Notes: generated by a model not told the origin, from the sequence alone. A DNA stretch of 64,000 bases from Eledone cirrhosa (GCA_964016885.1 OZ024743.1:91140001-91204000), one strand, 5' to 3'. Shown: positions 9,233 through 45,700, counted from the stretch's first letter. Translations and numbers: made by a program.

Positions 9233-12200
9233 GTAAAAACTATATTACAACTCACCATTGCAAAGTGTGGTTTTGTTTTGACTAAAATATTTTGTGTGGT
9301 TATTATGGTCTGGTGGATGAGCAGTGTATCGCTGGGAGTGAGAGTAAAACTAATAATGAATTTCAGAGGGTCATGTGTTGTGGAAGGATGAAAGTGATTG
9401 AGTGAGAGGAGTGATGGTAATAGAGCCAGTAATAAATGTTGTGAAGGGAAATGGAATGAGATGGTTGGGTCATGTGTTGTGAAAGGATGAAAATGATTGG
9501 GTGTGAGGAGTGATGGGAATAGAGCCAGAGCTGAATGTTGTGAAGAGGAATGGGATGGCTGGGTCATGTGTTGTGGAAGGATGAAAGTGACTGGGTGAGT
9601 GGAGTGATGGAAATGAATGTGGAAGGATTTAAAAAAGAGAAGACCAAGAAAGACATGGCTGAAGATGGAGGAAGAAATGAAAGCCAGCCTGTTGGTAAGG
9701 GAGGGATGCAAGCAATAGGGCAAAATGGAGAAGTTTGTCATGAAGCTCACAAGACTAATTCCTGCTTCAGCAGGGTTAATGGCCTTAAAACTGTTATTGT
9801 CAACAACTGGGGCAAGACATGGTATAACTGGGAAAATGGACCTATAAGTTTTTAATTGTTAGTTCATGTGTCTCATAGGTCTGCTTTACCAGAACTGATC
9901 TGGACTGACACAACAACTATGAATTGTGTAATAAACTAATTTCACTCATGCTAGCTAGCACAGATGAAATGGATGTAAAACATCAGTATGGTTTATCACC
10001 ATCACCATAAGTCTATTTTCCATGGTTAGATGGGCTGTCACATACCGAGGTTAGATTGGTGAGGTGGCCATGTTTTGGCTGTATGCTCCGTTTTTGGCTG
10101 GGTTTTTAAGGCTGAATGTTCTTTCTAATGCTAATCACTTTACTGGGAGCTGTTGTGGCACCAGCACTCCCACCTTGCAGGGTGGACTGAGTTCATTTTA
10201 TTGTGGCACCAGCACTCCCACCTTACTGGGTAGACTGTGCTTTTTATTGTGGCACCAGCACTCCCACCTTACTGGGTAGACTGTGCTTTTTATTGTGGCA
10301 CCAGCACTCCCACCTTACTGGGTGTGGACTGAGTTCATTTTATTATGGCACCAGCACTCCCACCTTACTGGGTGGACAGTTCATTTTATCGTGGCACTTC
10401 ATTGTAAACTGTTTTATAACAGTTCTTCCTGTGACTTGCAAATCACTTTACCATGTCGACTGGGAGCTTTTTTTTTCATGACACCTTAATGACCAGCTTA
10501 CAGGTGGACTACAGTATGTGATCAAGAATTTGGAAGAAATTAGTAAAATAACCTTTTCATTAAGCTACTGTTTGGTACATCGGTCGCTCTCTGACAGGTT
10601 TGTGGTTGAGGCCATAGCAGTGGAGACTGCTGGTGTCCTTAGCTATAAGACCACCGTCCTACTCACCACCATTGGCACGGAGTTGGCTACCCGTTAGCTA
10701 TCAAAGCTAACAAAGAAAGAGGCCCTGTTCTGACTCCTTCCTTTCACAGGTCATTTGTTCCTCTTACTTCCAGCACACCACAAAGAGGCTCGTCTTGCGT
10801 CTCCTATTACTTCAAGTACACCCCAAAGAAAGGGGCCCTGTCCTATCTTCTGCTCACCTAATGTCACTCGTGTTACTTCTCCTGTGCCACCCATTGCCCC
10901 ACACTACTAAAAGGCTTGGCTAAACATGTTTTTTTAATGTATTTTTTAATTTCTTTTTGTTTTTATAAAGCAGCAAGTAAAGGGTAGCATGCCACTAACA
11001 AAGTCCACCCAGAATATAAGGGGTGGTTCCACTACTGCTACCAGTACCACTTCCGCTACTACAAAGACCACTTCTGCTGCTGCTACAAGGTCTACCTCTG
11101 CTGCCACAAGGTCTGCCTCTGCTTCTGCTGCCGCTATCAGGACCACCTCCGCTGCTGCTACCAGGTTCACTTCTGCTGCTGCTACAAGGACCACCTCTGC
11201 TGCTACCAGGTCTACTTCCACTGCTGCTACAAAGTCCATGTCTGCTGCCGCTACCAAGTCTACCTCCGCTGCTGCTATAAATAAGAATGCTATAACTGCT
11301 GCCACTACACGGGCAACAACCAGGGCTAGAACTCGCCAAGCTGACGTTCAAAGGCCTAAACCTTCTTCAGTTGCTCCAGAGAAGAAAATACCTACAACCA
11401 GGCAGAGTACACGGTTTACATCAGCAAATGAAAGCAGGAGAGCACCATTAGCTACACAAACAACCAGAGTTACAAGACAAATCGGTAACAAGAAAGGTAC
11501 CCCCAAGACAACTACTAAGGTGTTGCCGTCAACAAAAGCCAAGACTGAAACACCTAGAGGAAAAAAACAGTCAAAACCAAAAATTGGTAAGTGTTTTTTT
11601 TTTACAGTTCAACATTTTTTTACTATGGCCTGTATTTTATGGTAAGCTCATTTAAAATTCTGAAAGTATGTTTCCTAGTGGTTAGTGTTGGACAGTGGGG
11701 GCAGGGGTTTAAGCCAAAACTGACTGATTCTTGGACCAATCAACCATTTTAAGAGATTCCTGTTTAATCTGGCTGTATCCGGCCAGAATTCTCTCACCTA
11801 CTTCTGTTCAAACCAGCCACTCACACTGATGTTAAGGTATTGTTCTCAAAATAAATATCAAAATCTCATAGATTTGATATTGTGAGATAAAGCCTTTACT
11901 GTGAAAATACAATAGTATATATAGAGTAATGTAAATGTTATGTGAGATAAAGCCTTTACTGTGAAAATATAATAGTATATATAGAGTAATGTAAATGCTA
12001 AAGATGGTGCTTTGTGTTCTTGAGCAAGATTTGTCATTTCGCATGGAGCCTCTATCATTAAAACACTTGAGAAACTGATGAGATGTACATTTGTAGGTGG
12101 CCAACTAAACCTGTAAAAGTGTAATCGGTAACATTTTATTGTATTCTTCTCTCAATTTGTTAAGTATTTAAAATTGTTAAATTTCTTCACCTAATTGTCT

Positions 12201-19500: not shown

Positions 19501-20265
19501 TGGTGTAACAGAGGAGGAGAATGCATGTGAAATGGTGGAGGAGAGTGAGGCTGTCATGGAGCAGGACAACGCTGCAGTGGAAGAGAGTGAGGATGTCGTG
19601 GAGCAGGACAACGCTGCAGTGGAGGAGAGTGAGGCTGTCGTGGAGCAGGACAACGCTGCAGTGGAAGAGAGCGAGGATGTCGTGGAGCAGGACAACGCTG
19701 CAGTGGAAGAGAGCGAGGATGTCGTGGAGCAGGACAACGCTGCAGTGGAAGGGAGCGAGGATGTCGTGGAGCAGGACAACGCTGCAGTGGAGGAGAGCGA
19801 GGATGTCGTGGAGCAGGACAACGCTGCAGTAGAGGAGAGTGAGGATGTCGTGGAGCAGGACAACGCTGCAGTAGAGGAGAGCGAGGCTGCCAAGGTTAAA
19901 AAATTTGTTGGAGCTACTGATTCAACAATTACCCCTGTTAGAAATGACCATGAGCCAGCAGTATTCAAGACTCCAGTTAGCAGTAGCATTGGTTTTAAGT
20001 CGAAGAAACGGAACTCTTATTCAGACACTAAACCAAGCAGCAAAAAGAAAAGCAAGAAGTCACTGTCGTGTCATAAGATGGATTCAACTAGAGTACCACA
20101 GTCACCTGAAGAATGGTAAGTTGGAAAGAATTATTATTTCCTTGGAGGGCAGAAAAACCTATTTCGAATTTTCAATGCCCTAGGGACTGCATTAGATAGC
20201 TATAACGTCGCGCCCTTATAATATCTGTGTATGTCTGGCTGTCTGCATTACTACATTATGACACT

Positions 20266-30700: not shown

Positions 30701-33700
30701 TGCACACAATGCCCAGGTCTCACTGCCATGCAACATTGCTGTTTGTATGCAGGCATCGTACAACCTGCCTTTCATTTTTAGGGAGAACCCTTTAGCAGCT
30801 AATAGTGGTATAAGCTCTCTGAACTTTTTCCAACCAGTTCTGACTCTAGCTACTGTACTTTCAGAGCACCCTCCCCCACTGCTGATTTTATCGCCCAGGT
30901 AACGGAAGCTGTCCACTATTTCTATAGAACCCTCTGCGCAATTGAAAGAGCTAGTATTTTGCGGGCACTTGCTGCTACTTATTGCACCAGAGCACCGGCC
31001 ACATGTAAAATCTATGTTCTTAGTTAGCTTACCTGTGATCCCACTACATCTTTTATGCACCCATACTTTGCATTTAGGACATAAAATGGAGTTTCTACCT
31101 ACGCCTTTCCTACACACTGAGCATGACCATTTCCCAGAAGGGACCGCCGCCTTATTTTCTTTCCTACAAACTAGAACTTTAGTCTTAGCCAGGTTAATTT
31201 TAAGTCCTTTTGATTCTAGGCCGTGCTTCCATGTTTGGAATTTCTTCTCTAGCTCGGCCATTGATTCAGCTATGAGTGTCAAGTCGTCTGCGTATAGGAG
31301 TTCCCATGGGCAGCCGGTCTTGAACTCCTCTGTTATAGCCTGAAGGGCAATAATAAATAGTAGGGGGCTGAGAACAGAGCCCTGATGGACGCCAACTTTT
31401 ACGCTAAACTCTTCACTATATTCGTTGTTAATTCTAACCTTGCTGACTGTTTCTTTATACATGGCTTGTATAGCTCTCACAAGCTATTCGTCAACACCTA
31501 GTTTTCTAAGAGCCCACCAGATAATGGAACGGGGGGACTCTGTCGAAGGCTTTCTCCAAGTCGACAAAAGCTAAGTAGAGGGGTTTACCTTTAGCTAGGT
31601 ACTTCTCCTGTAGTTGTCGTACAATGAAAAGAGCGTCTGTGGTACTTTTGCCTGACACAAACCCGAACTGCATTTCATCTAGGTCAATTCTCTCTCTGAT
31701 TAGTTGCGCTATTACTTTTTCCGTGACCTTCATGTTAATCTTGCATATTAACATCACACTGTTTTTCTGAAAACTTCCATCATAATTTTATGTAAGAACC
31801 TCTAAAGGTTTTCCCTAAACACCACCTTTATAAACTGATAGTTATTTTACTAAATCCCTTCAAATTTTTGATTATTTTCTGAATTATTTGAATATCATTG
31901 GCAGTGATACGCCTAAAACTGAAGGTGAAAAATTGGTCAGAATATGAACCTTGCGACGAACTCCATCGATTTTCGGGGTGTTTAGGGCCTGGGCAAAATT
32001 CAAACGTGCCCAGTAAGGCCATCTGGATGTAAAATATTGTCTTAACCCTTTAGCATTTAAACCGGCCATATCCGGCCAGAATTCTCTCACCTATTTCTGT
32101 TCAAACCGGCCACTCATATCGATGTTAGGGTAATGTTCTCAAAATAAATAACAAAATCTTGTAGATTCGATATTATGTGAGGCAAAGCCTTTACTGGGAA
32201 AATACAATAGTAAATATAGCGTAATGTAAATGCTAAAGGGTTGAAACAATCCATCCAATCCATGCAAGCCTGGAAAAGTTTGTCAAAATAATGTTGATGG
32301 TAATTGCTAACCATGTTTTGATTGATCTATTGATTCTTTTGTTTACAATGTTATTGATGAAAGTTTGAAATAATTTTATTTCATTTATTTTTTAAACAGC
32401 TGATGAAAAGTCATCAGAGACAGTAGAGGAAGCTGATGAGGTGGAGACTGTTACCCAAGGAAAAGTAGTTGCTGTGTCACAGGAGGTAACAGGAATAATC
32501 AGCCAAGAGACAACTATGGCAGTTGAACAGGAGTCATCTAATGAATCTTCTCAATTAAATTCTGAGACAGAAAAGGTTGACATAACAGAATACAATGTGG
32601 CTTACTTCAGGAACATTGTGGTTTCTCAGACTGAAGTATTGAACAATCTCTCTGATGTTTGGGAGACAATTGTACCCAGCCTCACTGAGGAAGGTAAGGA
32701 TATATTAAGATAAGAGATACTGCAATGTACTTCTATATAGTTGGTTATATTTTCTTTTCATCATCATCTTCATCACTGTTTAATGTTCGTTTTTCCATGT
32801 TAGCATAGGTTAGACAAGTTGTCCAAATGTGAGCCAAGCCAGATCAGATGACTGTCTTGCTCACACCGGATCGATGTTGGTTTGGTTTCTACTGCTGGAT
32901 GCCCTTCCTAATGCCAGCCACATTTATCAAACTTTTAATGCTACTACTAACACTTTATTTTGTTCTCGTAAACTCCCTAAGATTGGTGATCTGCACTATA
33001 AACCCAGTACACGCTGTAAAGTGGTTGGTGATAGGAAGGGCATCCAGCTGTAGAAAGCTTGCCAGACAAAGGGTTGGGAGGACCCATCAATCGTGTCAAG
33101 GACATGGCAGCCTGCCTAATGCTGGTAATCTACTTGATAAAATCACCAGTCATCATCATCATCATCATACGTTGAAAATTGGTTGGTGATAGGAAGGGCA
33201 TCCAGCTGTAGAAAGCTTGCCAAACAAGGGGTTGGGAGGACAACCTCTTCAGTGATGGTGCCATGATAACATACTCTCGGTAGAACATGGAACTATATGT
33301 AAGCGAGCTGTGATCCATCAGCCTCTCTGAGAGTTCAGTAGGCCCATTTCAGTACTGACTCGGTTTATGAAAATCTGCCCAACCCTTGCTAGCAGGGAAG
33401 GTGGACATTAAATGATGATATATAACTAAAACCATATATGCCTTAACTAGTATGTAAACAAATCTAAACCAAACCTATGCTATCCATGAACTCATCAAGA
33501 GTAAATCATAATTCTACAACCAACCCTACCCACCATACCATATTGCATCAGTAAAAATTAAATTTAAACATGTCCTTCGGAACCTTACCCTAGCCATCTC
33601 TGTCAAACAACAACCAACCTATTCAATATATAATCTCGTGTTAATAATGTGACCTTTCCTGAAACGCTAAACTTTTAACATCCTTTAATGATTTAACGGA

Positions 33701-36700
33701 AAATATCTAAAACTGAGTGTGTTAATTCAAATGTTTATAGTATCTTTACTGGTGGACAGATCATTGTAGAAATTTGAAGTATTAAAATAATTACTTTAAT
33801 TTTTAATGTGATGCAGTCACAGTGCTTTTGTATACTTTTCAATAATGCCTTGCTTATGCAGTTTCATGTGGTACAGGACGTTAAGAGTTAAATAAAAAGA
33901 GGATGAAGGAGTTATTCTCTTGTATAATATGACCCCATGCTACAAGACTGCTAGACTTGTTTGGTTGAGTTTGTTTGTGGCAAATTTGTATGGTTATTTT
34001 CTTTAAATAATTACCAATGCTTTAAGGTGATTGGAACTCATCTTCAGAATGTCTAGCTGTATGATTAGATTGTTGTTTTAACTTTAGGTCAACTCTGATT
34101 AGATGCATGATAAGAGACATCTATGACTTTCATGCCTTAACCTTTTAGCATTTAAACTAGCCATAACCAGCTGCTCATACTTATATTTAAAATTAATATC
34201 AAAATCTCGAAGATTCGATATTATGTGAGATAAAGTGTTTACTGTGAAAATACAATAGTAAATATAGAGTAATGTAAATGATAAAGGGTTAATCCTTTCA
34301 TTGTTATGTTTCTAATGGAAGACACTGCTTATGATTTTTAAATCATTTTGAAAATCAAGAATTCAGAGGGATTTGGTAATGTAACTAACTTAAAATGTCT
34401 TTTATATAATTATGATGGAAGGTTTTTAGATAAATATAAACACTATAAAACAAACAGTTTTGTATCATAGAACCACAGACAGTTTGCTATCTATCAAAAG
34501 TGTTAAGTTTACCGTGGGCTATATTATCTAATGTGTCAACCTAATTTTAAGTTTATATGTAGTTTAACTCTTGAACATCATGTATGATATTAGCAAAACA
34601 TTTTTGGAAAGTACAAAACAGCTCTAAGAATGCAACTTATTAAAAATTAACATCTTTACTATAATACCATAAAGACATTTTCACAAGAATCTGTCCAATA
34701 AAAATGCTATAAGCATTTGAATTAAAAAAACATTTTCAGATATTTTCTGCTAAATATTAAGAATCGACCACACAAGTACCTTTGAAATCAATTTAGATTT
34801 TGAATATGTCTTGTCATTGCCAATAATGACTTTTATATAATTTCAGTTCAAGGAGAAGTTCGGTCAGTTATCGGTCAAGCTAAACTATTGATTTCACAAC
34901 GTTTTGATCAGTTTATTGGTCTGGTTGACAACTGTGAGTTTAATACTGGTGAGAAGGAGACAACATGTGGAGATCTACAAGGTTTTTGGGATATGGTAGA
35001 TTTTCAGGTAAGTTTTTGTTGAATATTTAAACCTGTTGGATATCATTTGCCAGTATGTATGTGAAAGCATGTGGCTTAGTGGTTAGGGTGTCAGACATAT
35101 AATCCTAAGTTGTTTGATTTCTTGTTCAGGTGACATTTTGTGTTCTTAGCATGACACTTCATTTCACATTACTTTTCTTGCTAAACCTGCATAGATGTGA
35201 GTTGTAACAAACAGACAGTGTGGGAGTGCATTTCAGTTCCATTTTTCTTCTCTTCCTCAGTATTGTAATTTGGTAAGAAATTGATAGAAATGTTAGTGCT
35301 GGGTGAAATGTCTTGTATTTTTCCAGCTCTTTCTGATCTGTGTTATTTTTGCCTTTCATCATTCTGGGTTAGATAAAACACCAGTTTAGGGTGGTGGTTT
35401 GGCAGAATTAAGTGCTGTGTGTTATATGATCCGGCTCTATTTGTTCTTCCAAATCCCTCTGGGGATTACTTCTGTGCTCATAGCAAGTATCAACTCTGCT
35501 GCAAGCATTTGAACCAGATTACTGGTTTGAGAATATAACTCTGCCTCCTTCTCACCAGAGCCCCCCACCCCCTCTCTCTCTCCCTCCATCCCTTTCTCTC
35601 CCACTCACCCACCCCTCTCTCTCCCCTTTCTCTTACTTTCACTGTTTAATCTTGATTCAGTTTATTCCTTTACTTCTTATTGCAAATTTTTATTTCTTGT
35701 ATTTGTGTAGTTAAAAGTATGTTTATCTTTGTTAGGTGTCAGATGTGAAGAAAAAGTTTGCTGATTTACAGAAACTGAAAGACAACAATTGGCAGGCAGA
35801 AGTTGTAGCCAGCAGCAAACCTGTCAAGAAAATAAGGAAAGTAAAGTCTGAGTCATCCAAAGTTTCCAAAATGGAAGGGAAATCCAAATTTTCCAAGTTT
35901 CTGGCACAGAAGAAGAAAGCTGCAAATAATTCACCTGCAGTAGATCCTGAAAGGGAAACAGACAGTAAAGAACAAGTTAAAGTATTTGATGGCCATTTCT
36001 TCAAAGTGGAGAGTCCAGTTAAATCACCAAAGCCACATTGTTCTGGTAAGATTTGCCTGTTGTTGTTGTTGTTGTTCAGTAAAACTAAGTTGGTAGAGCA
36101 TCCAACTAAATGTTTGATAATATTTAGTTTGTTTTCAAATTTTTGAATTAAACTGGCTGTATCTGGCCAGAATTCTCTAACGTCTTTCTATTCAGACTGG
36201 CTGTAACCAGCTGCTTGTACTTATGTTAAGGTATTGTTCTCAAAATAAATAATATCAAAATCTCATAGATTTGGTATTATGTGAGTTAAAGCCTTTACCA
36301 TGAAAATACAATTGTAAATATAGTAATGCAAAGGTTAAATCCTACCAGGATGGATAAAACAACAACCATACATGTACTAGCATTGATTTAAGGATTGTAT
36401 AATTTATTTGGAGGATTGGCAGGATTAAGGTTGATCTAATACCTAGTATACAGCAGCAGTTTGTTCTCTCTCTTCTGCTGTTTTGGTCTAATCTCTTCTG
36501 TTTTTTGCATCCCTCATTGATTCATTAGGTTCCATGGTACAGAATGTTTCTTGAGTTTTACATTCATCCCCATCATCATTATTTAACCCTTTACCATTTA
36601 CATTACTCTATATTTACTATTATATTTTCATGGTTAACACTTGATCTCACATAATATCGAATCTACGAGATTTTGATATTGCAGCTGGTTATGGCCAGCT

Positions 36701-39700
36701 TGAATAGAAAGAGGTGAGAGAATTCTGGCCGGATACGGCTGGTTTAAATGCTAAAGGGTTAATGTCTGTTTTCCTTGTTAGCAATTGTTGTTTAAATAAA
36801 TTTGTTTGAATTTTTCTTGAATTTTAGATTCATCATCACCATTATCATTTATTGTCCATTTTCCTTGCTAGCAAGAATTGTTTCTTTAAACTTGTTTGAA
36901 TTGTCATATTTTCAGACTCTGCCCCTAGTCCAGTTGTTAAACCAGTTTCCACTGACACAACCAAGGAGCAATCAGATGCTGTTGTTATTGCTGATTGTCA
37001 TGAGAAAGACAAGCTAGTTGATAAAACATCTGAAACAGAGTTAAAAGATTTGAATGATGAAGAAGCAGTCGAGCCAGTTGGTGCTGAGAGGTCTAGTGAT
37101 TCCCCAATGGTAACACCGTTTATTACAAGACCTAGCTATGTTCCTGCCATTCCCAGTCCTCTCCTTCAGGATGTAACACCTAGAAGGAGGAGAGTATCCA
37201 CCAAACGCCATTCGGTTCTCTTCAGTGAAATGACAAAAACACCAGACAGTTCTCAGCCAGTACCATCTACACCTGTTGAAGATGTTGGAGATGTTTCGAC
37301 ATCTGTTCCCAAGTCAGCACGAAGGTTTGTGTTTGACAGTTTATTTATTTGTTTATTTTTGGATTATGTTTGTTGTGTCGGAAATAACAAGGAGAGCAAT
37401 GTCGCATGAGTGGAAGGACAAAACACGGGGGCTCTCTTTCCTTGTGGGGCTAGATAGCGTGTGTGTGTGGGGGGAGGGGGGTGTCAATGAGCTTGTGTGA
37501 AACCTGGGATTTCTGGCCAGAGTGTGGAATATCCAGGACAGTGGGACAGTTATTCAAGACCTGAGAGTAAGACATTTATTGCCTACTTTTTCTGTTCCAG
37601 AAGTAGCAGACGTTTTCAAAGAACCAGCAGGAGGATTTCTGCAGTTCAACCTGTTGCCAAGACTCCCAGGAAAGGTATGTACTATTTTATTAATTGATCT
37701 TAAATTATATTTAACTGCTAACATCCTGTAATTATTTAACAAAACATTTCTATAAAAGAAGAAACAGGTTTGTTAATTTAAATGTTTATAGTATCTTTAC
37801 TGGTGGACAGATTGTTGTGAAAATTTACAGTTTTAAAGACTTTAATTTTTAAGTAGCCATGCAGTTAAATGCTGTTTTGTGCTTTTCAAGAATATCTTGC
37901 TTATGTGGCTTCATTGGGTACAGGACATTAAGAGTTAATGATTTGCTTAACATATTTATTTATTATATTAGTATTATTTAGTTTAGTGAATGTGTGTGGC
38001 TTAGTGGTTAGGGTGTTTTGGCTTATGATTGTAAGGTTGTTATTTTGATGCTGAGATCAGCTGGTGCTGACACCTCAATAAGTTGCACCCAGTACACTCT
38101 GTAAAGTGGTAGTGCTGGTGTCTTAATACATATACTTTGTACGCTCTGCAAAGGGGTGGTGCTTATGCCACAATAAAATGTACCTGGTATACACTGCAAA
38201 GAGGTAATGGCAGTGGAACGGTAAAATAAACCTAGTATATGCTGTAAAGTGGTTGGCATATGGCAGGGCAACCAACTCTAGAAATCATGCCAAAATAAAA
38301 CATATGCAAGAGATGTTATCTGATCCTGTTTAGTTTCAAACTTTGACAACCTGTTCAATCTATAAAAACGGTTGTCAAATGATGACTATGATGATGAGGG
38401 GTTAAAATTATTTTAACCCCTCCCTGCCCAACTTGTTTTGATTGATCTATTGATTCTTTTGTTTACAATGTTATTGATGAAAGTTTGAAATAATTTTATT
38501 TCATTTATTTTTTAAACAGCTGATGAAAAGTCATCAGAGACAGTAGAGGAAGCTGATGAGGAGACAGAGGTGGAGACTGTTACCCAAGAAGAAGTAGTTG
38601 CTGTGCCACAGGAGGTAACAGGAATAATCAGCCAAGAGACAACTATGGCAGTTGAACAGGAGTCATCTAATGAATCTTCTCAATTAAATTCTGAGACAGA
38701 AAAGGTTGACATAACAGAATACAATGTGGCTTACTTCAGGAACATTGTGGTTTCTCAGACTGAAGTATTGAACAATCTCTCTGATGTTTGGGAGACAATT
38801 GTACCCAGCCTCACTGAGGAAGGTAAGGATATATTAAGAGGTATTGTAATATTCTTTTAAGTTTTTGTTTATAAAGAAACTATTTTCCGAATCACTGAGC
38901 AGATTTAAGTTTTGAAAATATTTTAGTTTATTTTGTAACTTGTTTGTGTTTTGATTCCACCATGTCTTGTCATTACCAATAATGACTTTTATATAATTTC
39001 AGTTCAAGGAGAAGTTCGGTCAGTTATCGGTCAAGCTAAACTATTGATTTCACAACGCTTTGATCAGTTTATTCGTCTGGTTGACAACTGTGAGTTTAAT
39101 ACTGGTGAGAAGGAGACAACATGTGGAGATCTACAAGGCTTTTGGGATATGGTAGATTTCCAGGTAAGTCTTTGTTGAATATTTATCATCTCCAAATGGT
39201 TTTCTGCAGTTTAACCCTTTAGCATTTACATTACTCTATATTTATATTTTCATGGTAAAGGCTTTACCTCATATAATATCGAACCTATGAGATTTTGATA
39301 TTTATTTTGAAGGCAATATCTTAACATTAGTATGAGTGGCCGGTTACAGCCAGTTTGAATAGAAAGAGGTGAGGGAATTCTGTCCAGATACAACCGGTTT
39401 AAATGTTAAAGGGTTAAGGTGGTCGACTGACAGAATTGTTATAATGTCTGACATTATAACTATGTGCCTTGTAGCATATGATCATGTACTTTTTGTTCTG
39501 CTTCCAAATCCCTCTATGGTCTACTTGGGTGCTCCTATCAGCATCTGCTTTGTTGCAAGTATTTGGGACAGGACTCTGGTTTGAAAATGCCTGCTTCTTT
39601 CCCACCATTTTATCTTGGAATACAAAGTTAAAATGGTTTATATTTAGCATTCTTGTTTTATTTCTTGTATTTGTGTAGTTAAAAGTATGTTTATCTTTGT

Positions 39701-42700
39701 TAGGTGTCAGATGTGAAGAAAAAGTTTGCTGATTTACAGAAACTGAAAGACAACAATTGGCAGGCAGAAGTTGTAGCCAGCAGCAAACCTGTCAAGAAAA
39801 TAAGGAAAGTAAAGCCTGGGGCATCCAAAGTTTCCAAAATGGAAGGGAAATCTAAATTTTCCCAGTTTCTGACACAGAAGAAGAAAGCTGCAAATAATTC
39901 ACCTGCAGTAGATCCTGAAAAGGAAACAGACAGTGAAGAACAAGTTAAAGTATTTGATGGCCATTTCTTCAAAGTGGAGAGTCCAGTTAGATCACCAAAG
40001 CCACATTGTTCTGGTAAGATTTGCCTGTTGTTGTTGTTGTTCAGTAAGACTAAGCGGGTAGAGCATCCAACTAAATGTTTGATAATATTTAGCTTGATCT
40101 CTCAAATTTCTGAGTTTAAATCCCACCAGGATGGATAAAACAACAATCATATATGTACTAGCATTGCACTGTCATTTGACCTGGCTTGTCTCACAACTGT
40201 ACAGCTCATCTAACCCATGCTAGTGTGGAAAATGGATGTTAAACGGTGATGATAATGATTTTAACTCCTTTCTTATGAACAAAGAATCAAAATCTTAATG
40301 GCAAGAAAACTATTTATTTTGTTGCTGGAGCACAGACGTTTTAGTGGTCAAAATATCTCATCAGAACTTAACCCTTTTGTTGTCATATTTTTGATGAAAG
40401 ACACTATGGTTTTCAAATAATTTTGAAAATAATCAAGACAGTTTAGTAATAAAACTTTCTCATTAAGCTGCTGTAGATTGGCAGTTTCGGTAGTGCGTCA
40501 AATACCATGCTTTGCAGTATAGTTATGGCCCTTTACGTTCTGGGTTCAAATTCCGCCAAGATTAACTTTGCCTTTTATCCTTACGGGGTCAATAAAATAA
40601 AGCACGAGTAATGCACTGGGGTAATTGCTGGCCTTGTTCCAAAAGTAGAAATAATTATTAAGCTGGTGTTTGGAACATAACTTGAGTTTTTACATAAAAT
40701 TATGATAGGTTTTTAGATAAATATAAGCATTTTATAATAAACGGTTTTATATTGTAAACCCAGGGGCGTTATCAAAAGAGTTAAGGACTTAAAGAGAAAA
40801 GTATTAATATCCAAGGAAGTTACTGACAGTTTGTGTTTTATCTTTTAGTTAAATTTGAATTGTCTGTTTTTCTTTCTCAATAAGAGTTATTTATTTAAAT
40901 TTGTTTGAATTGTCATATTTTCAGACTCTGCCCCTAGTCCAGTTGTTAAACCAGTTTCCACTGACACAACCAAGGAGCAATCAGATGCTGTTGTTATTGC
41001 TGATTGTCATGAGAAAGACAAGCTAGATGATAAAACATCTGAAACAGAGTTAAAAGATTTGAATGATGAAGAAGCAGTCGAGCCAGTTGGTGCTGAGAGG
41101 TCTAGTGATTCCCCAATGGTAACACCGTTTATTACAAGACATAGCTATGTTCCTGCCATTCCCAGTCCTCTCCTTCAGGATGTAACACCTAGAAGGAGGA
41201 GAGTATCCACCAAACGCTATTCGGTTCTCTTCAGTGAAATGACAAAAACACCAGACAGTTCTCAGCCAGTACCATCTACACCTGTTGAAGATGTTGGAGA
41301 TGTTTCGACATCTGTTCCCAAGTCAGCACCAAGGTTTGTGTTTGACAGTTTATTTATTTATTTATTTTTGGATTATGTTTGTTGTGTCGGAAATAACAAG
41401 GAGAGCAATGTCGCATGAGTGGAAGGACAAAACACGGGGGCTCTCTTTCCTTGTGGGGCTAGATAGCGTGTGTGTGTGTGTGGGGAGGGGGGTGTCAATG
41501 AGCTTGTGTGAAACCTGGGATTTCTGGCCAGAGTGTGGAATATCCAGGACAGTGGGACAGTTATTCAAGACCTGAGAGTAAGACATTTATTGCCTACTTT
41601 TTCTGTTCCAGAAGTAGCAGACGTTCTCAAAGAACCAGCAGGAGGATTTCTGCAGTTCAACCTGTTGCCAAGACTCCCAGGAAAGGTATGTACTATTTTA
41701 TTAATTGATCTTAAATTATATTTAACTGCTAACATCCTGTAATTATTTAACAAAACATTTCTATAAAAGAAGAAACAGGTTTGTTAATTTAAATGTTTAT
41801 AGTATCTTTACTGGTGGACAGATTGTTGTGAAAATTTACAGTTTTAAAGACTTTAATTTTTAAGTAGCCATGCAGTTAAATGCTGTTTTGTGCTTTTCAA
41901 GAATATCTTGCTTATGTGGCTTCATTGGGTACAGGACATTAAGAGTTAATAATTTGCTTAACATATTTATTTATTATATTAGTATTATTTAGTTTAGTGA
42001 ATGTGTGTGGCTTAGTGGTTAGGGTGTTTTGGCTTATGATTGTAAGGTTGTTATTTTGATGCTGAGATCAGCTGGTGCTGACACCTCAATAAGTTGCACC
42101 CAGTACACTCTGTAAAGTGGTAGTGCTGGTGTCTTAATACATACACTTTGTACGCTCTGCAAAGGGGTGGTGCTTATGCCACAATAAAATGTACCTGGTA
42201 TACACTGCAAAGAGGTAATGCCAGTGGAACGGTAAAATAAACCTAGTATATGCTGTAAAGTGGTTGGCATATGGCAGGGCAACCAACTCTAGAAATCATG
42301 CCAAAATAAAACATATGCAAGAGATGTTATCTGATCCTGTTTAGTTTCAAACTTTGACAACCTGTTCAATCTATACAAACATGAAAAAACGGTTGTCAAA
42401 TGATGACTATGATGATGATTGATTTCAATAAAATTATTTTAACCCCTCCCTGCCCAATTTGTTTTGATTGATCTATTGATTCTTTTGTTTACAATGTTAT
42501 TGATGAAAGTTGAAATAATTTATTCTACGAGATTTTGATATTGCAGCTGGTTATGGCCAGCTTGAATAGAAAGAGGTGAGAGAATTCTGGCCGGATACGG
42601 CTGGTTTAAATGCTAAAGGGTTAATGTCTGTTTTCCTTGTTAGCAATTGTTGCTTAAATAAATTTGTTTGAATTTTTCTTGAATTTTAGATTCATCATCA

Positions 42701-45700
42701 CCATTATCATTTATTGTCCATTTTCCTTGCTAGCAAGAATTGTTTCTTTAAACTTGTTTGAATTGTCATATTTTCAGACTCTGCCCCTAGTCCAGTTGTT
42801 AAACCAGTTTCCACTGACACAACCAAGGAGCAATCAGATGCTGTTGTTATTGCTGATTGTCATGAGAAAGACAAGCTAGATGATAAAACATCTGAAACAG
42901 AGTTAAAAGATTTGAATGATGAAGAAGCAGTCGAGCCAGTTGGTGCTGAGAGGTCTAGTGATTCCCCAATGGTAACACCGTTTATTACAAGACCTAGCTA
43001 TGTTCCTGCCATTCCCAGTCCTCTCCTTCAGGATGTAACACCTAGAAGGAGGAGAGTATCCACCAAACGCCATTCAGTTCTCTTCAGTGAAATGACAAAA
43101 ACACCAGACAGTTCTCGGCCAGTACCATCTACACCTGTTGAAGATGTTGGAGATGTTTCGACATCTGTTCCCAAGTCAGCACCAAGGTTTGTGTTTGACA
43201 GTTTATTTATTTGTTTGTGGCTAGACTCACTTGTATTGAGTCATACTCAGTCCTTATACATTTCCTTGAACCATGGAATCAGCAGATTTCAAAGAAACAA
43301 ACAAGAAAATATTTTAACCATTCCATAACTATATTTCAAATGAAGGTCACTGATCATAAATTTCAAATTATTTTGAAAATGATCAAGAATTTGGAGCAGT
43401 TTAGTAATAAAAATAACTTATTATTAAGCTGGTGTTTGGGACATCAAGTTTTTACATAAAATTAGATATATATAAACAATTTAAAACCTTTTCAATTATA
43501 TTTTAATGAAAGTCATTGCCTATAATTTTCAAATATTTTTTTAAATCATCATCATCATCATCTTCGTTTAACATCCATTTTCCACGCTAGCATGGGTTAG
43601 ACGGGAGTTGTCCCACTTGGGGCAAGGCTGGTCGGGTGACCGTGTCTCGCTCATGTAGGACTATCTGGCAGGTTTTCTACGGCTGGATGCCCTTCCTAAC
43701 ACCAATGCCCTAAATAATCAATAATTTTCTCATTATTCAGCTCATGTTTTGAACCAAACTTAGCCAAAGTTCTCAGATAAAATTATGATGAAAGGTTTCT
43801 AGATAGATGTAAATATTTTAGCATAAGGTGATATGTATATTAGAACCAGGGTTGGTTTCAGGAAGTTTGGTATCAAAGGAGTTAAAAAAAAATGGTGCTA
43901 GATTTAATTGCCTATTTTTTCTGTTTCTCCAGCAGCAGAAGACGATCTCAACGAATCAGCCGGAGGGTTTCTGCAGTTGAACCAGTTGTCAAGACTCTCA
44001 GGAAAGGTATGTACTATTCTAGTAATCAAAGTTCACTTTGCAATTAACTGGTTTCGGTTTTGATTCCATTAGTATATAGCTACTAGGCATAATGTCTTCT
44101 ATATATAAATTTGAGCGACTTCCATCTGACCTTCCGTCACACACTAGAGATGACTGAGGAAGAAAGGGGTGATGAGAAACTACAGAAAACAGCACCTAAC
44201 ATTCACTGATGCAGGCTGCTACCATTGTTACTATGACTACCTCATACTACTCTTCTCTCTTTATGTCTGATGCAGGCTGCTACCACACATACACATACGT
44301 GTCAGCGTGTTGAAAAAAATCCTAGTTTGAAAATAGCTTGAAATATTGAGGGCAATTATGATTGAGTCAACCCTTGGTTTCTGTGCTCCTGTCTGATAAT
44401 AGTCCATCCAATAAAAGGACTACAAGAATGTGTGTACTATAAAATTAGTGAGGGGATAGGCTGGTTTATATGTATGGAAGATCTTAGGTTTAACTCATAT
44501 TTCTCATGAAAGACACTGCCTATGATTTTCATTTTGAAAATAAAGAAATTGAAGAGATTTGATATTATAACAAAGTTTTTTGTAACCTTCCATCATAATT
44601 TTATGTAAGAACTTTTGTTAAGTTATATTCAAAACATGATCTTAATAATGGTTTCTGATTTAGACACAAGGCCAATAATTTTTAGGTAGGGGAAATCAAT
44701 TAAATTGACTTTGTCAGGATGAAAGGAAAAGCTAACCTTCAGCGGGATTTGAACTCAGACCGTATAGGGTCATAACTCTATGCCACAAAGCATGTTGTCC
44801 GACACTCTACCGATACTGCCAATCCACTGCCCTAAACCTGATCTTATTAATGAGAATGTTATATTACTAAATTCCTCAAAATTATAGGTAGTGTCTTTCA
44901 TTAAAAATATAATCATGAAATGGATAAATTTATATTTATCTAAAAATCTTCCATCATAATTTATCTAAGACATTTTGTTAATGTATGTTCAAAACAGGTT
45001 TATGAGAAAGTTCTATTACTAAATCCCCCCTAATTCTTGACTATTTTCGAAATTATGTGAACATTCTAGATTTTCATTAAAAATCTAGTCATCAAAGGGT
45101 AATGGGTACTGTGTGTTAAATTTTATTTAGATTCTACAAATACAACTGATGTAGCAGTAGAACAACTGATTGATTTGTCTGAGAATAGTATCCTTAAGGT
45201 TGAAGACTCTTCTGAGAAAAAGACCCCATCAAACAAAAGAAGATCCAGGGCTAAGTGTAAGTAAAATTAATTTTCTCTGTCTAAAGTCTGTCTTAAGCCA
45301 GAAGACTTGTTAGGTTGGTGCTTATCCTGGTTTCATGGCTTGAAGCAACTGAGACACCCCACTGAACAGGATGCCAGTCCATCGAAGGGTTAAACCCCCA
45401 GCTATTGCTGGTACTCATTTTCAGCTGAGTATATTGAAGCAAGCCCAGGAATGGAACCCAATTTTCTCTATGGAATGATTAATTCATTCGATATAGTTAT
45501 TGTCTAATCCTTATTTAACTGGTGCTTATTTTATCAACCATGAAAGTATGAAAGGAAAAATTGCCCAACCCCTGCTAGCAGTGAAAACAGCCGTTAAAAT
45601 GATAATGATGATGAATGTAAAGATATTTTTGCTAAATACTGCAGGGTATTTGGCCTGGCATTGTACCATCACAGCCACATTCATCATTTTACATCTGCTT

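What the first reader, a model, noticed from the sequence alone, without database searches (positions are those of the whole stretch)
32313..40165. Duplicated exons are ~97-99% identical while their introns are old and dissimilar: exon-centred homogenisation
Seen: F1/F2, G1/G2 and H1/H2 are near-identical, including most synonymous sites and about 20-100 nt of flanking intron, and identity then collapses. The F-G intron is 2153 vs 180 bp. The G-H introns share only a roughly 70% identical relic (35420-35555 vs 39470-39607). Different MITEs and SINEs sit in each copy (36150-36337 in copy 1 only, 39215-39413 in copy 2 only). Inference: an old duplication whose exons are repeatedly homogenised by short gene-conversion tracts (concerted evolution within one gene). 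This pattern also argues against an assembly artefact for F-G-H.
Basis: partly seen in the sequence, partly recalled or inferred. Interest (0 to 1): 0.72.

Follow-up and report, generated by a model that had tools for sequence, protein, structure and literature searches.

The report
Patchily homogenised tandem exon blocks
An octopod's DLGAP5/HURP-like spindle-protein gene holds two and a half tandem copies of a five-exon block whose exons are 97-99% identical while most intron sequence between them shares nothing, a mosaic that likely comes from an old duplication later patched by gene conversion and unequal crossing-over, which is a known kind of concerted evolution.

Summary
Exons F, G and H occur twice at 99.0, 97.5 and 97.1% identity. 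They carry 17-155 nt of similar intron flank, and beyond that similarity vanishes.

The repeat unit is five exons, F-G-H-I-J, of a DLGAP5/HURP-like gene. It is in frame, and a third, partial unit holds I3 and J3. Units 1 and 2 also share about 1.5 kb at 99%, of which about 1.0 kb is non-coding, so homogenisation is not strictly exon-centred.

Exon J3 is only 82-84% identical to J1/J2 (dS about 0.34), against dS 0.016 for exons F-I. The odd copy out switches from unit 2 to unit 3 across exon I (permutation 0/20000).

The intron interiors are not measurably homologous, rather than merely diverged. The 73% "relic" is derived from a transposable element.

Spliced contigs show F2-G2-H2 and an I3-type exon. 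A related species carries unit-2-type introns.

Best reading (0.6): an old tandem duplication, then non-allelic gene conversion and unequal crossing-over. Main rival (0.2): a young duplication with indel and TE turnover. This is a new member of a known kind and of moderate interest.

The parts
32314..38433 (+). Unit 1 (U1) of the tandem repeat: f, F1, G1, H1, I1, J1 and the downstream block d
   Evidence: Self-BLAST. The unit start at 32314 matches 38434 and 42460.
32400..32693 (+). Exon F1 (294 nt, phase 1 to 1)
   Evidence: AG/GT borders read. tblastn to the octopus DLGAP5-like protein. 291/294 identical to F2.
34847..35007 (+). Exon G1 (161 nt), core of the GKAP domain
   Evidence: Pfam GKAP 40 bits against a cut-off of 27. 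157/161 identical to G2.
35736..36045 (+). Exon H1 (310 nt)
   Evidence: 301/310 identical to H2.
36916..37324 (+). Exon I1 (409 nt)
   Evidence: AG/GT borders. 405/409 identical to I2 and to I3.
37601..37674 (+). Exon J1 (74 nt)
   Evidence: AG/GT borders. 73/74 identical to J2 but 61/74 to J3.
38434..42459 (+). Unit 2 (U2): f, F2 38520-38822, G2 39003-39163, H2 39704-40013, I2 40925-41333, J2 41612-41685 and d
   Evidence: One spliced F2-G2-H2 contig lies on it without a mismatch (record 10). Organism B's contigs match its unit-specific introns.
42460..44026 (+). Partial unit 3 (U3): 64-nt f' (42460-42523) joined directly to a MITE part (42524-42627), then I3 42778-43186 and J3 43933-44006
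   Evidence: 36662-36915 matches 42524-42777 at 253/254. The DNA contig of X1 across 42459|42460 carries the d2 states.
35406..35557 (+). G-H intron 'relic' of U1; its partner in U2 is 39458-39607. It is TE-derived.
   Evidence: 108/147 identical, z = 32. Other genomic copies exist.
36148..36331 (+). MITE present in U1 only, sitting inside the H 3' flank block
   Evidence: At least 39 other genomic copies at 86-91%.
39210..39420 (-). MITE present in U2 only. Organism B's contig runs 35 nt into it.
   Evidence: record 16 ends at 39244.
40167..40754 (.). TE block in the U2 H-I intron. Organism B's contig has 108 nt in its place.
   Evidence: (record 19).
36851..36915 (+). Flank upstream of exon I. 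U2 (40859-40924) is 15.4% diverged here, while U1 and U3 are identical over these 65 nt.

Best explanation
A five-exon block (F-G-H-I-J, 1248/1257 coding nt, in frame) of a DLGAP5/HURP-like gene stands in two full tandem copies plus a partial third, and this array likely stems from an old tandem duplication whose units were later homogenised in patches by non-allelic gene conversion and unequal crossing-over.

Shown directly:
- The three-unit anatomy, intact splice sites and open frames.
- A mosaic of segments at 0-3% divergence next to segments at 15-27% or without detectable homology.
- The switch of the odd copy out across exon I.
- A spliced F2-G2-H2 contig and a contig of I3-type exon I.

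Inferred:
1. The first duplication is old, at neutral divergence of roughly 0.3 substitutions per site.
2. Separate short tracts of 224 to about 510 nt re-copied F, G and H with their splice-site flanks between U1 and U2.
3. An exchange in or next to exon I gave U2 the right half of U1 (I-J intron, J and d, about 0.9% diverged).
4. A still younger exchange gave U3 the U1-type left flank of exon I (0.4% diverged).
5. A 4.3-kb deletion removed F-G-H from U3.
6. Exon J (74 nt) would be too short to keep pairing with J3 and so escaped.
7. Intron interiors lost homology through TE insertions and deletions, which would confine later tracts to the exons. This is the self-reinforcing 'escape' expected when conversion needs similarity.
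For: Two divergence levels:
- dS for F-I between U1 and U2 is 0.0155 (4 synonymous differences over 261 sites).
- dS for J1 versus J3 is 0.347, and for J2 versus J3 0.339 (5 synonymous differences over 18 sites each). Fisher p = 4e-5.

Neighbouring segments differ sharply:
- I 5' flank 10/65 mismatches against exon I 4/409, p = 8e-7.
- Exon J 13/74 against exon I 4/409 for U1-U3, p = 1.4e-8.
- Relic 39/147 against exons F-I 20/1174, p = 2e-25.

Site patterns among U1/U2/U3:
- Upstream of I, U2 is the odd one out (0/10/0).
- Within exon I, 2/3/2.
- At J, U3 is the odd one out (1/0/16).
- Chi-square 32.2, and 0 of 20000 permutations reach it.

Identity is not kept by selection: dN/dS = 1.14 (16 nonsynonymous and 4 synonymous differences).

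No other donor exists in the assembly. Exon F has 2 places, G has 2 and I has 3, all at this locus.

Cross-species hint:
- Organism B's contigs are about 8.7% different from U2 (139 mismatches in 1595 laid bases of the seven listed pieces of six records).
- They cover U2-specific intron interiors (38840-38961, 39186-39244, 40755-40858).
- At 3 of the 4 G1/G2 differences B has the G1 state.
- So the G exons (2.5% apart) are closer to each other than either is to B, while the U2 introns group with B's.

Block sizes fit the tract lengths reported for non-allelic conversion, a mean of 250 bp with interval 63-1000 (10.1101/135152, abstract and passages). A modelled case gives the same mosaic (HMA4, 10.1101/2025.10.29.685298, passages).
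Against: - For U1 versus U2 the 'old' level rests on only 65 nt of flank and on a TE-derived relic.
- The relic's 3' half in U1 is 82-90% like the six other TE copies examined but only about 70% like U2's. This fits independent insertions better than equal-rate orthologues.
- The other intron interiors show no homology at all. Replacement by indels explains that as well as great age does.
- About 1.0 kb of non-coding DNA is as similar between U1 and U2 as the exons are (99.1-99.3%).
- Organism B shows one contig per site over G and H. If the duplication were four times older than the split from B, B should carry it too.
- TE nearest-neighbour identity gave no usable clock.
- The exact order of exchanges that yields the present array was not resolved.
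Confidence: 0.6

Rival explanations
1. The duplication is young (about 1-3% divergence, after the split from organism B). U2 keeps the ancestral introns. The intron interiors of U1 were replaced by TE insertions and deletions, and only exons with their splice-site flanks survived. No gene conversion is needed for F-G-H.
For: - Intron interiors are non-homologous rather than diverged.
- The U1 F-G interior is a patchwork of TE copies.
- The non-coding d block is 99% identical.
- Organism B shows U2-type introns and one contig per site over G and H.
- The relic's asymmetric TE distances fit independent insertions.
- dN/dS is about 1.
Against: - It needs three introns of U1 each to lose all ancestral interior sequence while the 1.0 kb of d took only two small indels.
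- It cannot explain J1/J2 versus J3 at dS 0.34 next to exon I at 1%.
- It cannot explain the 15.4% flank upstream of I2, which exceeds the 6.4% (18/280) between U2 and organism B over 40755-41034.
- It cannot explain the switch of the odd copy out.
- No contiguous source for the 2.1-kb U1 interior exists elsewhere in the assembly. The best non-self matches are TE pieces of 450 nt or less.
Confidence: 0.2
2. Assembly artefact: two haplotypes, or mis-joined reads, of a single-copy block were laid in tandem.
For: - The copies are 97-99% alike and differ by TE-sized indels, as divergent haplotypes of a heterozygous marine invertebrate might.
- The DNA runs that hold the stretch may come from the very sample that was assembled.
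Against: - The window has no N.
- DNA contigs of X1 lie without a mismatch on U2-only introns (records 4, 5 and 7). One 406-nt contig carries every d2 state and crosses 42459|42460 by 51 nt.
- A spliced contig is exactly F2-G2-H2, and another carries all four I3-specific states.
- J3 differs from J1/J2 by 12-13 of 74 nt and the introns share nothing, which is far beyond allelic divergence.
- Contig word depths of 3.8-7.1 (U2-only), 12.6 (junction) and 19.2 (exon I) lean towards 1:2:3 copies. This is weak evidence.
Confidence: 0.04
3. The duplication is old and exon identity is kept by purifying selection alone, without sequence exchange.
For: The exons are coding, and exon G lies in the conserved GKAP domain.
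Against: - Synonymous sites are as conserved as the rest (dS 0.0155), and the differences are mostly nonsynonymous (16 against 4, dN/dS 1.14).
- Intron flanks are 100% identical over 86, 17 and 48 nt.
- Exon J, also coding, diverged to 82-84%.
Confidence: 0.02

Closest known systems
Mosaic divergence by interlocus gene conversion in the three tandem HMA4 genes of Arabidopsis halleri (bioRxiv 10.1101/2025.10.29.685298; passages read)
   Same: There are three head-to-tail copies. Coding exons and short introns are kept nearly identical while long, TE-bearing introns diverge. Conversion falls off with divergence, and the duplication age is underestimated from converted parts.
   Different: HMA4 involves whole genes under selection for dosage. 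Here the copies are exon blocks inside one transcription unit. The unconverted introns have lost homology altogether, whereas HMA4 long introns differ by 5-6%. One unit here is truncated. No population data exist here.
Non-allelic gene conversion between human gene duplicates (bioRxiv 10.1101/135152; abstract and passages read)
   Same: Tracts are a few hundred bp long (mean 250 bp). The rate drops as paralogues diverge, until they 'escape'. Here the blocks are 224 to about 510 nt, and the 74-nt exon J has escaped.
   Different: That estimate comes from introns of young duplicates in primates. No rate, direction or GC bias could be estimated here.
CYP21A2 / CYP21A1P-type exchange between a working gene and a tandem non-working copy (PMC3843699; search listing and start of abstract only; the rest recalled)
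   Same: If U1, I2 and J2 are not spliced into the main mRNA, they would be silent copies that trade sequence with the used exons.
   Different: The copies here have open frames and intact splice sites and lie within introns of the same gene. No disabling mutation is seen.
Tandemly duplicated, mutually exclusive exons such as Dscam (PMC3236188; search listing only)
   Same: Tandem exon copies share length and phase inside one gene.
   Different: Dscam exon copies are diverged and each is used. Here the copies are 97-99% identical and come as five-exon blocks, and only one path was seen in spliced contigs.

Membership tests
Concerted evolution by non-allelic gene conversion / unequal crossing-over | Paralogues show a mosaic of very low and high divergence beyond chance | tested here: met
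   Segment table. Fisher tests give p from 4e-5 to 2e-25.
Concerted evolution by non-allelic gene conversion / unequal crossing-over | Relationships among three or more copies change along the sequence | tested here: met
   Odd-copy-out counts (U1/U2/U3) are 0/10/0, 2/3/2 and 1/0/16. 0 of 20000 permutations reach the statistic.
Concerted evolution by non-allelic gene conversion / unequal crossing-over | Converted parts group by species, unconverted parts by copy | tested here: inconclusive
   G1 and G2 are 2.5% apart, against about 8.7% to organism B. B carries U2-type introns.
Concerted evolution by non-allelic gene conversion / unequal crossing-over | Tract lengths of tens to about a thousand bp | tested here: met
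   Blocks of 397, 224 and about 510 nt, and one of about 1.5 kb that fits a crossover better. Reference value.
Concerted evolution by non-allelic gene conversion / unequal crossing-over | Polymorphisms shared between copies in a population; GC-biased changes | not tested
   No population sample covers the unique parts; RAD run X6 has depth 0 there. Only 6 differences lie in the G block, 4 of them T in U1 against C in U2. That is too few to judge.
GKAP / DLGAP5 (HURP) gene | GKAP domain above Pfam's cut-off and collinear match to annotated orthologues | tested here: met
   Exon G scores 40 bits against a cut-off of 27. Octopus and Argonauta proteins named 'large-associated 5' or carrying PF03359 are 63-72% identical in exon H. 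tblastn of the Octopus vulgaris protein gives collinear matches from 9071 to 56961, with F, G and H matched twice and I three times.
Mutually exclusive exon cassettes | Each alternative is used, one per transcript | tested here: inconclusive
   Units are in frame and interchangeable. Only F2-G2-H2 and an I3-type exon I were seen in contigs, and contigs drop rare variants.
False duplication (assembly artefact) | Gap or contig end at the junction; copy-specific sequence absent from reads | tested here: not met
   The window has no N. Copy-specific introns and the d2|f' junction are found in X1 contigs. X1 may be the assembled sample itself.

The most novel reading that the evidence does not exclude
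The extra units are silent, intact exon cassettes lodged in introns of a working gene. The main mRNA hops from F2-G2-H2 over the intact I2-J2 to I3-J3. The unused copies F1-G1-H1-I1-J1 and I2-J2 are kept open and splice-competent purely by being overwritten from the used exons. They would form a standing reservoir that can feed variants back, such as the Gly-to-Arg change at a conserved GKAP position in G2, or be switched in as 416-codon alternative cassettes.
Probability: 0.15. Interest if true: 0.55.

Novelty: new member of a known kind. Interest (0 to 1): 0.36.

Why it matters
- It is a clean, small worked example of how sequence exchange can make an old duplication look young in its exons. 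Exon identity gives dS 0.016 where unconverted parts give about 0.34, so dating or orthology calls from coding sequence alone would be off about twenty-fold.
- It warns annotators of cephalopod genomes that near-identical exon sets inside one gene need not be assembly errors, and that gene models may have to skip intact exons.
- Biologically it bears on how the GKAP region of the spindle protein HURP is encoded in this octopod.
- It is not a new mechanism.

Tried and rejected
U1 was therefore never laid, and organism B could not be asked for U1-type introns.
- The look-up of sequencing runs: no RNA holder listed. Run X4, of unrecorded kind, nevertheless held spliced contigs.
- RAD-seq run X6: depth 0 on all unique parts, so it gives no independent individuals.
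- Dating unit-specific TEs by their nearest genomic relatives was rejected. The TE block that organism B lacks (40167-40754) has best matches of 76-88%. That is the same range as the U1-only TEs at 72-86% and close to the U1-only MITE at 86-91%. In addition, only 40 candidates are scored per search.
- Weak collinear similarity in the F-G, G-H (outside the relic) and H-I intron interiors: none of the 9 comparisons exceeds shuffles.
- A contiguous source locus for the U1 intron interiors: none was found.
- cDNA-mediated homogenisation was rejected, because intron flanks are co-homogenised.
- X1 record 6 as proof of the U1 MITE junction was rejected. It has 6 mismatches to H2 where H1 would give 13 plus a 3-nt gap, so it is probably a graph chimera.
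- The search of earlier findings returned nothing for this place.
- PMC9220161: the passages read held only general remarks.
- A single sequence of crossovers that yields the present order of units was not found.
Full report
WHAT THE LOCUS IS

The window has no gaps. It lies on contig C4 of a 3.0-Gb genome.

The + strand carries a DLGAP5/HURP-like gene. Exon G matches Pfam GKAP at 40 bits against a cut-off of 27. The translation of exon H finds 5 proteins, from Octopus bimaculoides, O. sinensis, O. vulgaris ('large-associated 5') and Argonauta hians, at 63-72% identity. tblastn of the O. vulgaris protein gives collinear exon matches from 9071 to 56961.

In those orthologues the stretch encoded by F-G-H-I-J occurs once. 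In the window F, G and H match twice and I three times.

ANATOMY

Self-comparison, alignments and a splice-site scan give three tandem units.

- **U1, 32314-38433:** F1 32400-32693, G1 34847-35007, H1 35736-36045, I1 36916-37324, J1 37601-37674, then a 759-nt non-coding tail 'd'.
- **U2, 38434-42459:** the same five exons (F2 38520-38822, G2 39003-39163, H2 39704-40013, I2 40925-41333, J2 41612-41685) and d.
- **U3, from 42460:**
  - It starts with the first 64 nt of a unit.
  - It then jumps straight into the middle of the MITE that lies upstream of I1 in U1 (42524 corresponds to 36662).
  - I3 follows at 42778-43186 and J3 at 43933-44006.
  - U3 therefore looks like a unit that lost F-G-H through a 4.3-kb deletion.

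All exons have AG/GT borders and open frames. The intron phases make the unit (1248 nt in U1, 1257 nt in U2) a multiple of three, so J can splice in frame to F or to I.

Elsewhere in the assembly there are no further copies: exon F has 2 places, G has 2 and I has 3, all at this locus.

CHECK OF THE OBSERVATION

U1 against U2, ungapped columns:

| Segment | Identical / aligned |
|---|---|
| f (intron upstream of F) | 86/86 |
| Exon F | 291/294, plus a 9-nt in-frame indel |
| F 3' flank | 17/17 |
| G 5' flank | 40/41 |
| Exon G | 157/161 |
| G 3' flank | 21/22 |
| H 5' flank | 48/48 |
| Exon H | 301/310 |
| H 3' flank | 90/97 and 50/54, split in U1 by a MITE |

Beyond these flanks similarity ends. 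In 9 comparisons of intron interiors the best local score never exceeded dinucleotide shuffles (z from -0.5 to 1.4).

The one exception is the G-H 'relic', at 108/147 = 73.5% with z = 32.

**1. Homogenisation is not limited to exons.** From exon I to the unit end, U1 and U2 are about 99% identical:

| Segment | Identical / aligned |
|---|---|
| Exon I | 405/409 |
| I-J intron | 274/276 |
| Exon J | 73/74 |
| d | 752/759 |

About 1.0 kb of this is non-coding and holds shared TE copies.

**2. The 65 nt upstream of exon I split the other way.** They are identical between U1 and U3 over these 65 nt (253/254 over the wider 36662-36915 / 42524-42777), but only 55/65 between U2 and either of them.

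**3. Exon J escaped.** J3 matches J1 at 61/74 and J2 at 62/74, while exon I, 250-750 nt away, is 405/409 in every pair. Beyond 30 nt downstream of I3, U3 shares nothing with U1 or U2 except exon J and some 20-26 nt on each side of it.

TWO LEVELS OF DIVERGENCE

By Nei-Gojobori counts, exons F-I of U1 and U2 differ at 4 synonymous and 16 nonsynonymous positions. This gives dS 0.0155, dN 0.0177 and dN/dS 1.14.

Exon J3 against J1 has 5 synonymous differences over 18 sites. Its dS is 0.347 and its dN 0.142.

The relic is 26.5% diverged, which by my own Jukes-Cantor arithmetic is about 0.33. So there is a 'young' level of 0-3% and an 'old' level of roughly 0.3, about twenty-fold apart.

The contrasts between neighbouring segments are far beyond chance:

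| Contrast | Fisher p |
|---|---|
| I 5' flank vs exon I | 8e-7 |
| Exon J vs exon I | 1.4e-8 |
| Relic vs exons F-I | 2e-25 |
| Synonymous sites of J vs those of F-I | 4e-5 |

Purifying selection cannot be what keeps the exons alike. Synonymous sites and intron flanks are the most alike of all, and the differences that do exist are mostly amino-acid changes.

EXCHANGE BETWEEN UNITS

With three copies every variable site singles out one copy. The copy singled out changes along the sequence:

| Segment | U1 / U2 / U3 singled out |
|---|---|
| Upstream of exon I | 0 / 10 / 0 |
| Exon I plus 30 nt | 2 / 3 / 2 |
| Exon J with flanks | 1 / 0 / 16 |

The chi-square is 32.2, and 0 of 20000 permutations reach it. 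No series of duplications without exchange gives this.

- U2 has a left part of its own kind and a right part of U1's kind.
- U3 has a left flank of U1's kind and a right part of its own, old kind.

I infer at least one exchange in or beside exon I for each of U2 and U3, the deletion in U3, and separate short tracts over F, G and H. I could not find a single simple order of crossovers that gives the present order of units.

READS

I therefore had one remaining lay, and used it on 37372-41330.

**Run X4** has no recorded kind.
- It holds one 805-nt contig that lies on F2, G2 and H2 in three pieces with the introns skipped and no mismatch.
- It has depth 0 in the F-G intron interior, so it carries spliced RNA sequence.
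- Its contig over exon I differs from I2 at four places (41141, 41218, 41223, 41264), and each is the I3 state.
- No F1, G1, H1, I1 or I2 variant was laid. Contigs drop rarer variants, so this shows what is used, not what is unused.

**Run X1** is DNA and may come from the assembled sample.
- It gives exact contigs on U2-only intron sequence (records 4, 5 and 7).
- It gives a 406-nt contig whose six substitutions and 15 inserted letters are exactly the d2 states. This contig crosses the U2|U3 junction by 51 nt.

**Run X5** is a different organism label.
- It differs from U2 at 139 of 1595 laid bases in the seven listed pieces of six records (8.7%).
- It covers U2-specific intron interiors and the first 35 nt of the U2-only MITE.
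- Its H-I intron has 108 nt where U2 has a 588-nt TE block.
- At the four G1/G2 exon differences it reads the G1 state three times and a third base once.

So the two G exons are closer to each other than to the relative, while the U2 introns go with the relative's. That is what conversion after speciation predicts. A duplication after speciation predicts the same, so the test is not decisive without U1.

WEAK POINTS

- **The relic is TE-derived.**
  - Its 3' half recurs elsewhere in the genome.
  - Its 5' half is significantly like at least one of the same copies.
  - The U1 3' half is 82-90% like the six outside copies examined but about 70% like U2's. Equal-rate orthologues would not show this.
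- **TE nearest-neighbour identity is no clock here.** The TE block that the relative lacks is still only 76-88% like its best matches, as are the U1-only TEs.
- **The old age of the U1/U2 split rests on little.** It rests on 65 nt of flank, the relic and the loss of all other intron homology. The old age of U3's right half is firm.
- **The relative shows one contig per site over G and H.** If the relative truly has one block, the duplication is young.

VERDICT

The best reading is an old tandem duplication homogenised in patches by non-allelic gene conversion and unequal crossing-over (0.6). Tract sizes are 224 to about 510 nt, and one block is about 1.5 kb. These fit published values, a mean of 250 bp (10.1101/135152, abstract and passages).

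The pattern of exons kept alike while TE-bearing introns escape has been described and modelled for the tandem HMA4 genes (10.1101/2025.10.29.685298, passages).

The rivals are a young duplication with indel turnover (0.2), an assembly artefact (0.04) and selection alone (0.02).

I searched the paper library twice. I found no report on this gene in cephalopods, but the searches were not aimed at that, so I make no claim that none exists.

The finding is a new member of a known kind.

Noticed in passing
window 39074 (G2) vs 34918 (G1): G2, the copy seen in the spliced contig, has Arg where G1, organism B, Octopus and Argonauta have Gly in the conserved GKAP motif QF(I/L)GLVDNCEF. The expressed copy therefore carries the derived, radical change.
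   Followed up: partly
window 32041-32247, 34132-34292, 36148-36331, 36578-36765, 39210-39420, 42543-42627: Six copies of one MITE family of about 185-210 nt lie within 11 kb, in both orientations. The family is extremely abundant: summed contig word depth is about 739,000 in one bin against about 8 for unique sequence, and at least 39 other full-length copies at 86-91% were scored.
   Followed up: partly
window 32970-33419 (inside the U1 F-G intron): This element matches many loci at 72-79%. At some of them (for example G000 C10:23659286-23660687, C12:37021634-37022441 and C23:18397313-18398001) the matches repeat at about 143-nt steps. It is a TE with an internal satellite-like array, or a satellite seeded by it.
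   Followed up: no
window 19559-20113 and 10968-11630: Upstream exons of the same gene encode low-complexity repeats: acidic '[14 protein letters not shown]' units and Thr/Ala/Ser-rich runs. At the corresponding position the Octopus orthologues have different repeats (VTQVAPAE units), so the repeat regions turn over between species.
   Followed up: no
window 35556-35640: A long C/T-rich low-complexity run lies directly after the TE-like relic in the U1 G-H intron and is absent from U2. The other copies of that TE family also end in C/T-rich tails.
   Followed up: no
window 36769-36812 vs 36859-36902: A 44-nt direct repeat (82%) lies just upstream of exon I1. It is a local duplication of the polypyrimidine/branch region, is shared with U3 and is absent from U2.
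   Followed up: no
window 38558-38566: The only length difference between the duplicated exons is a 9-nt in-frame insertion in F2, inside a GAGG-rich stretch. It looks like replication slippage. All three F substitutions lie within 50 nt of it, and the remaining 216 nt of the exon are identical.
   Followed up: partly
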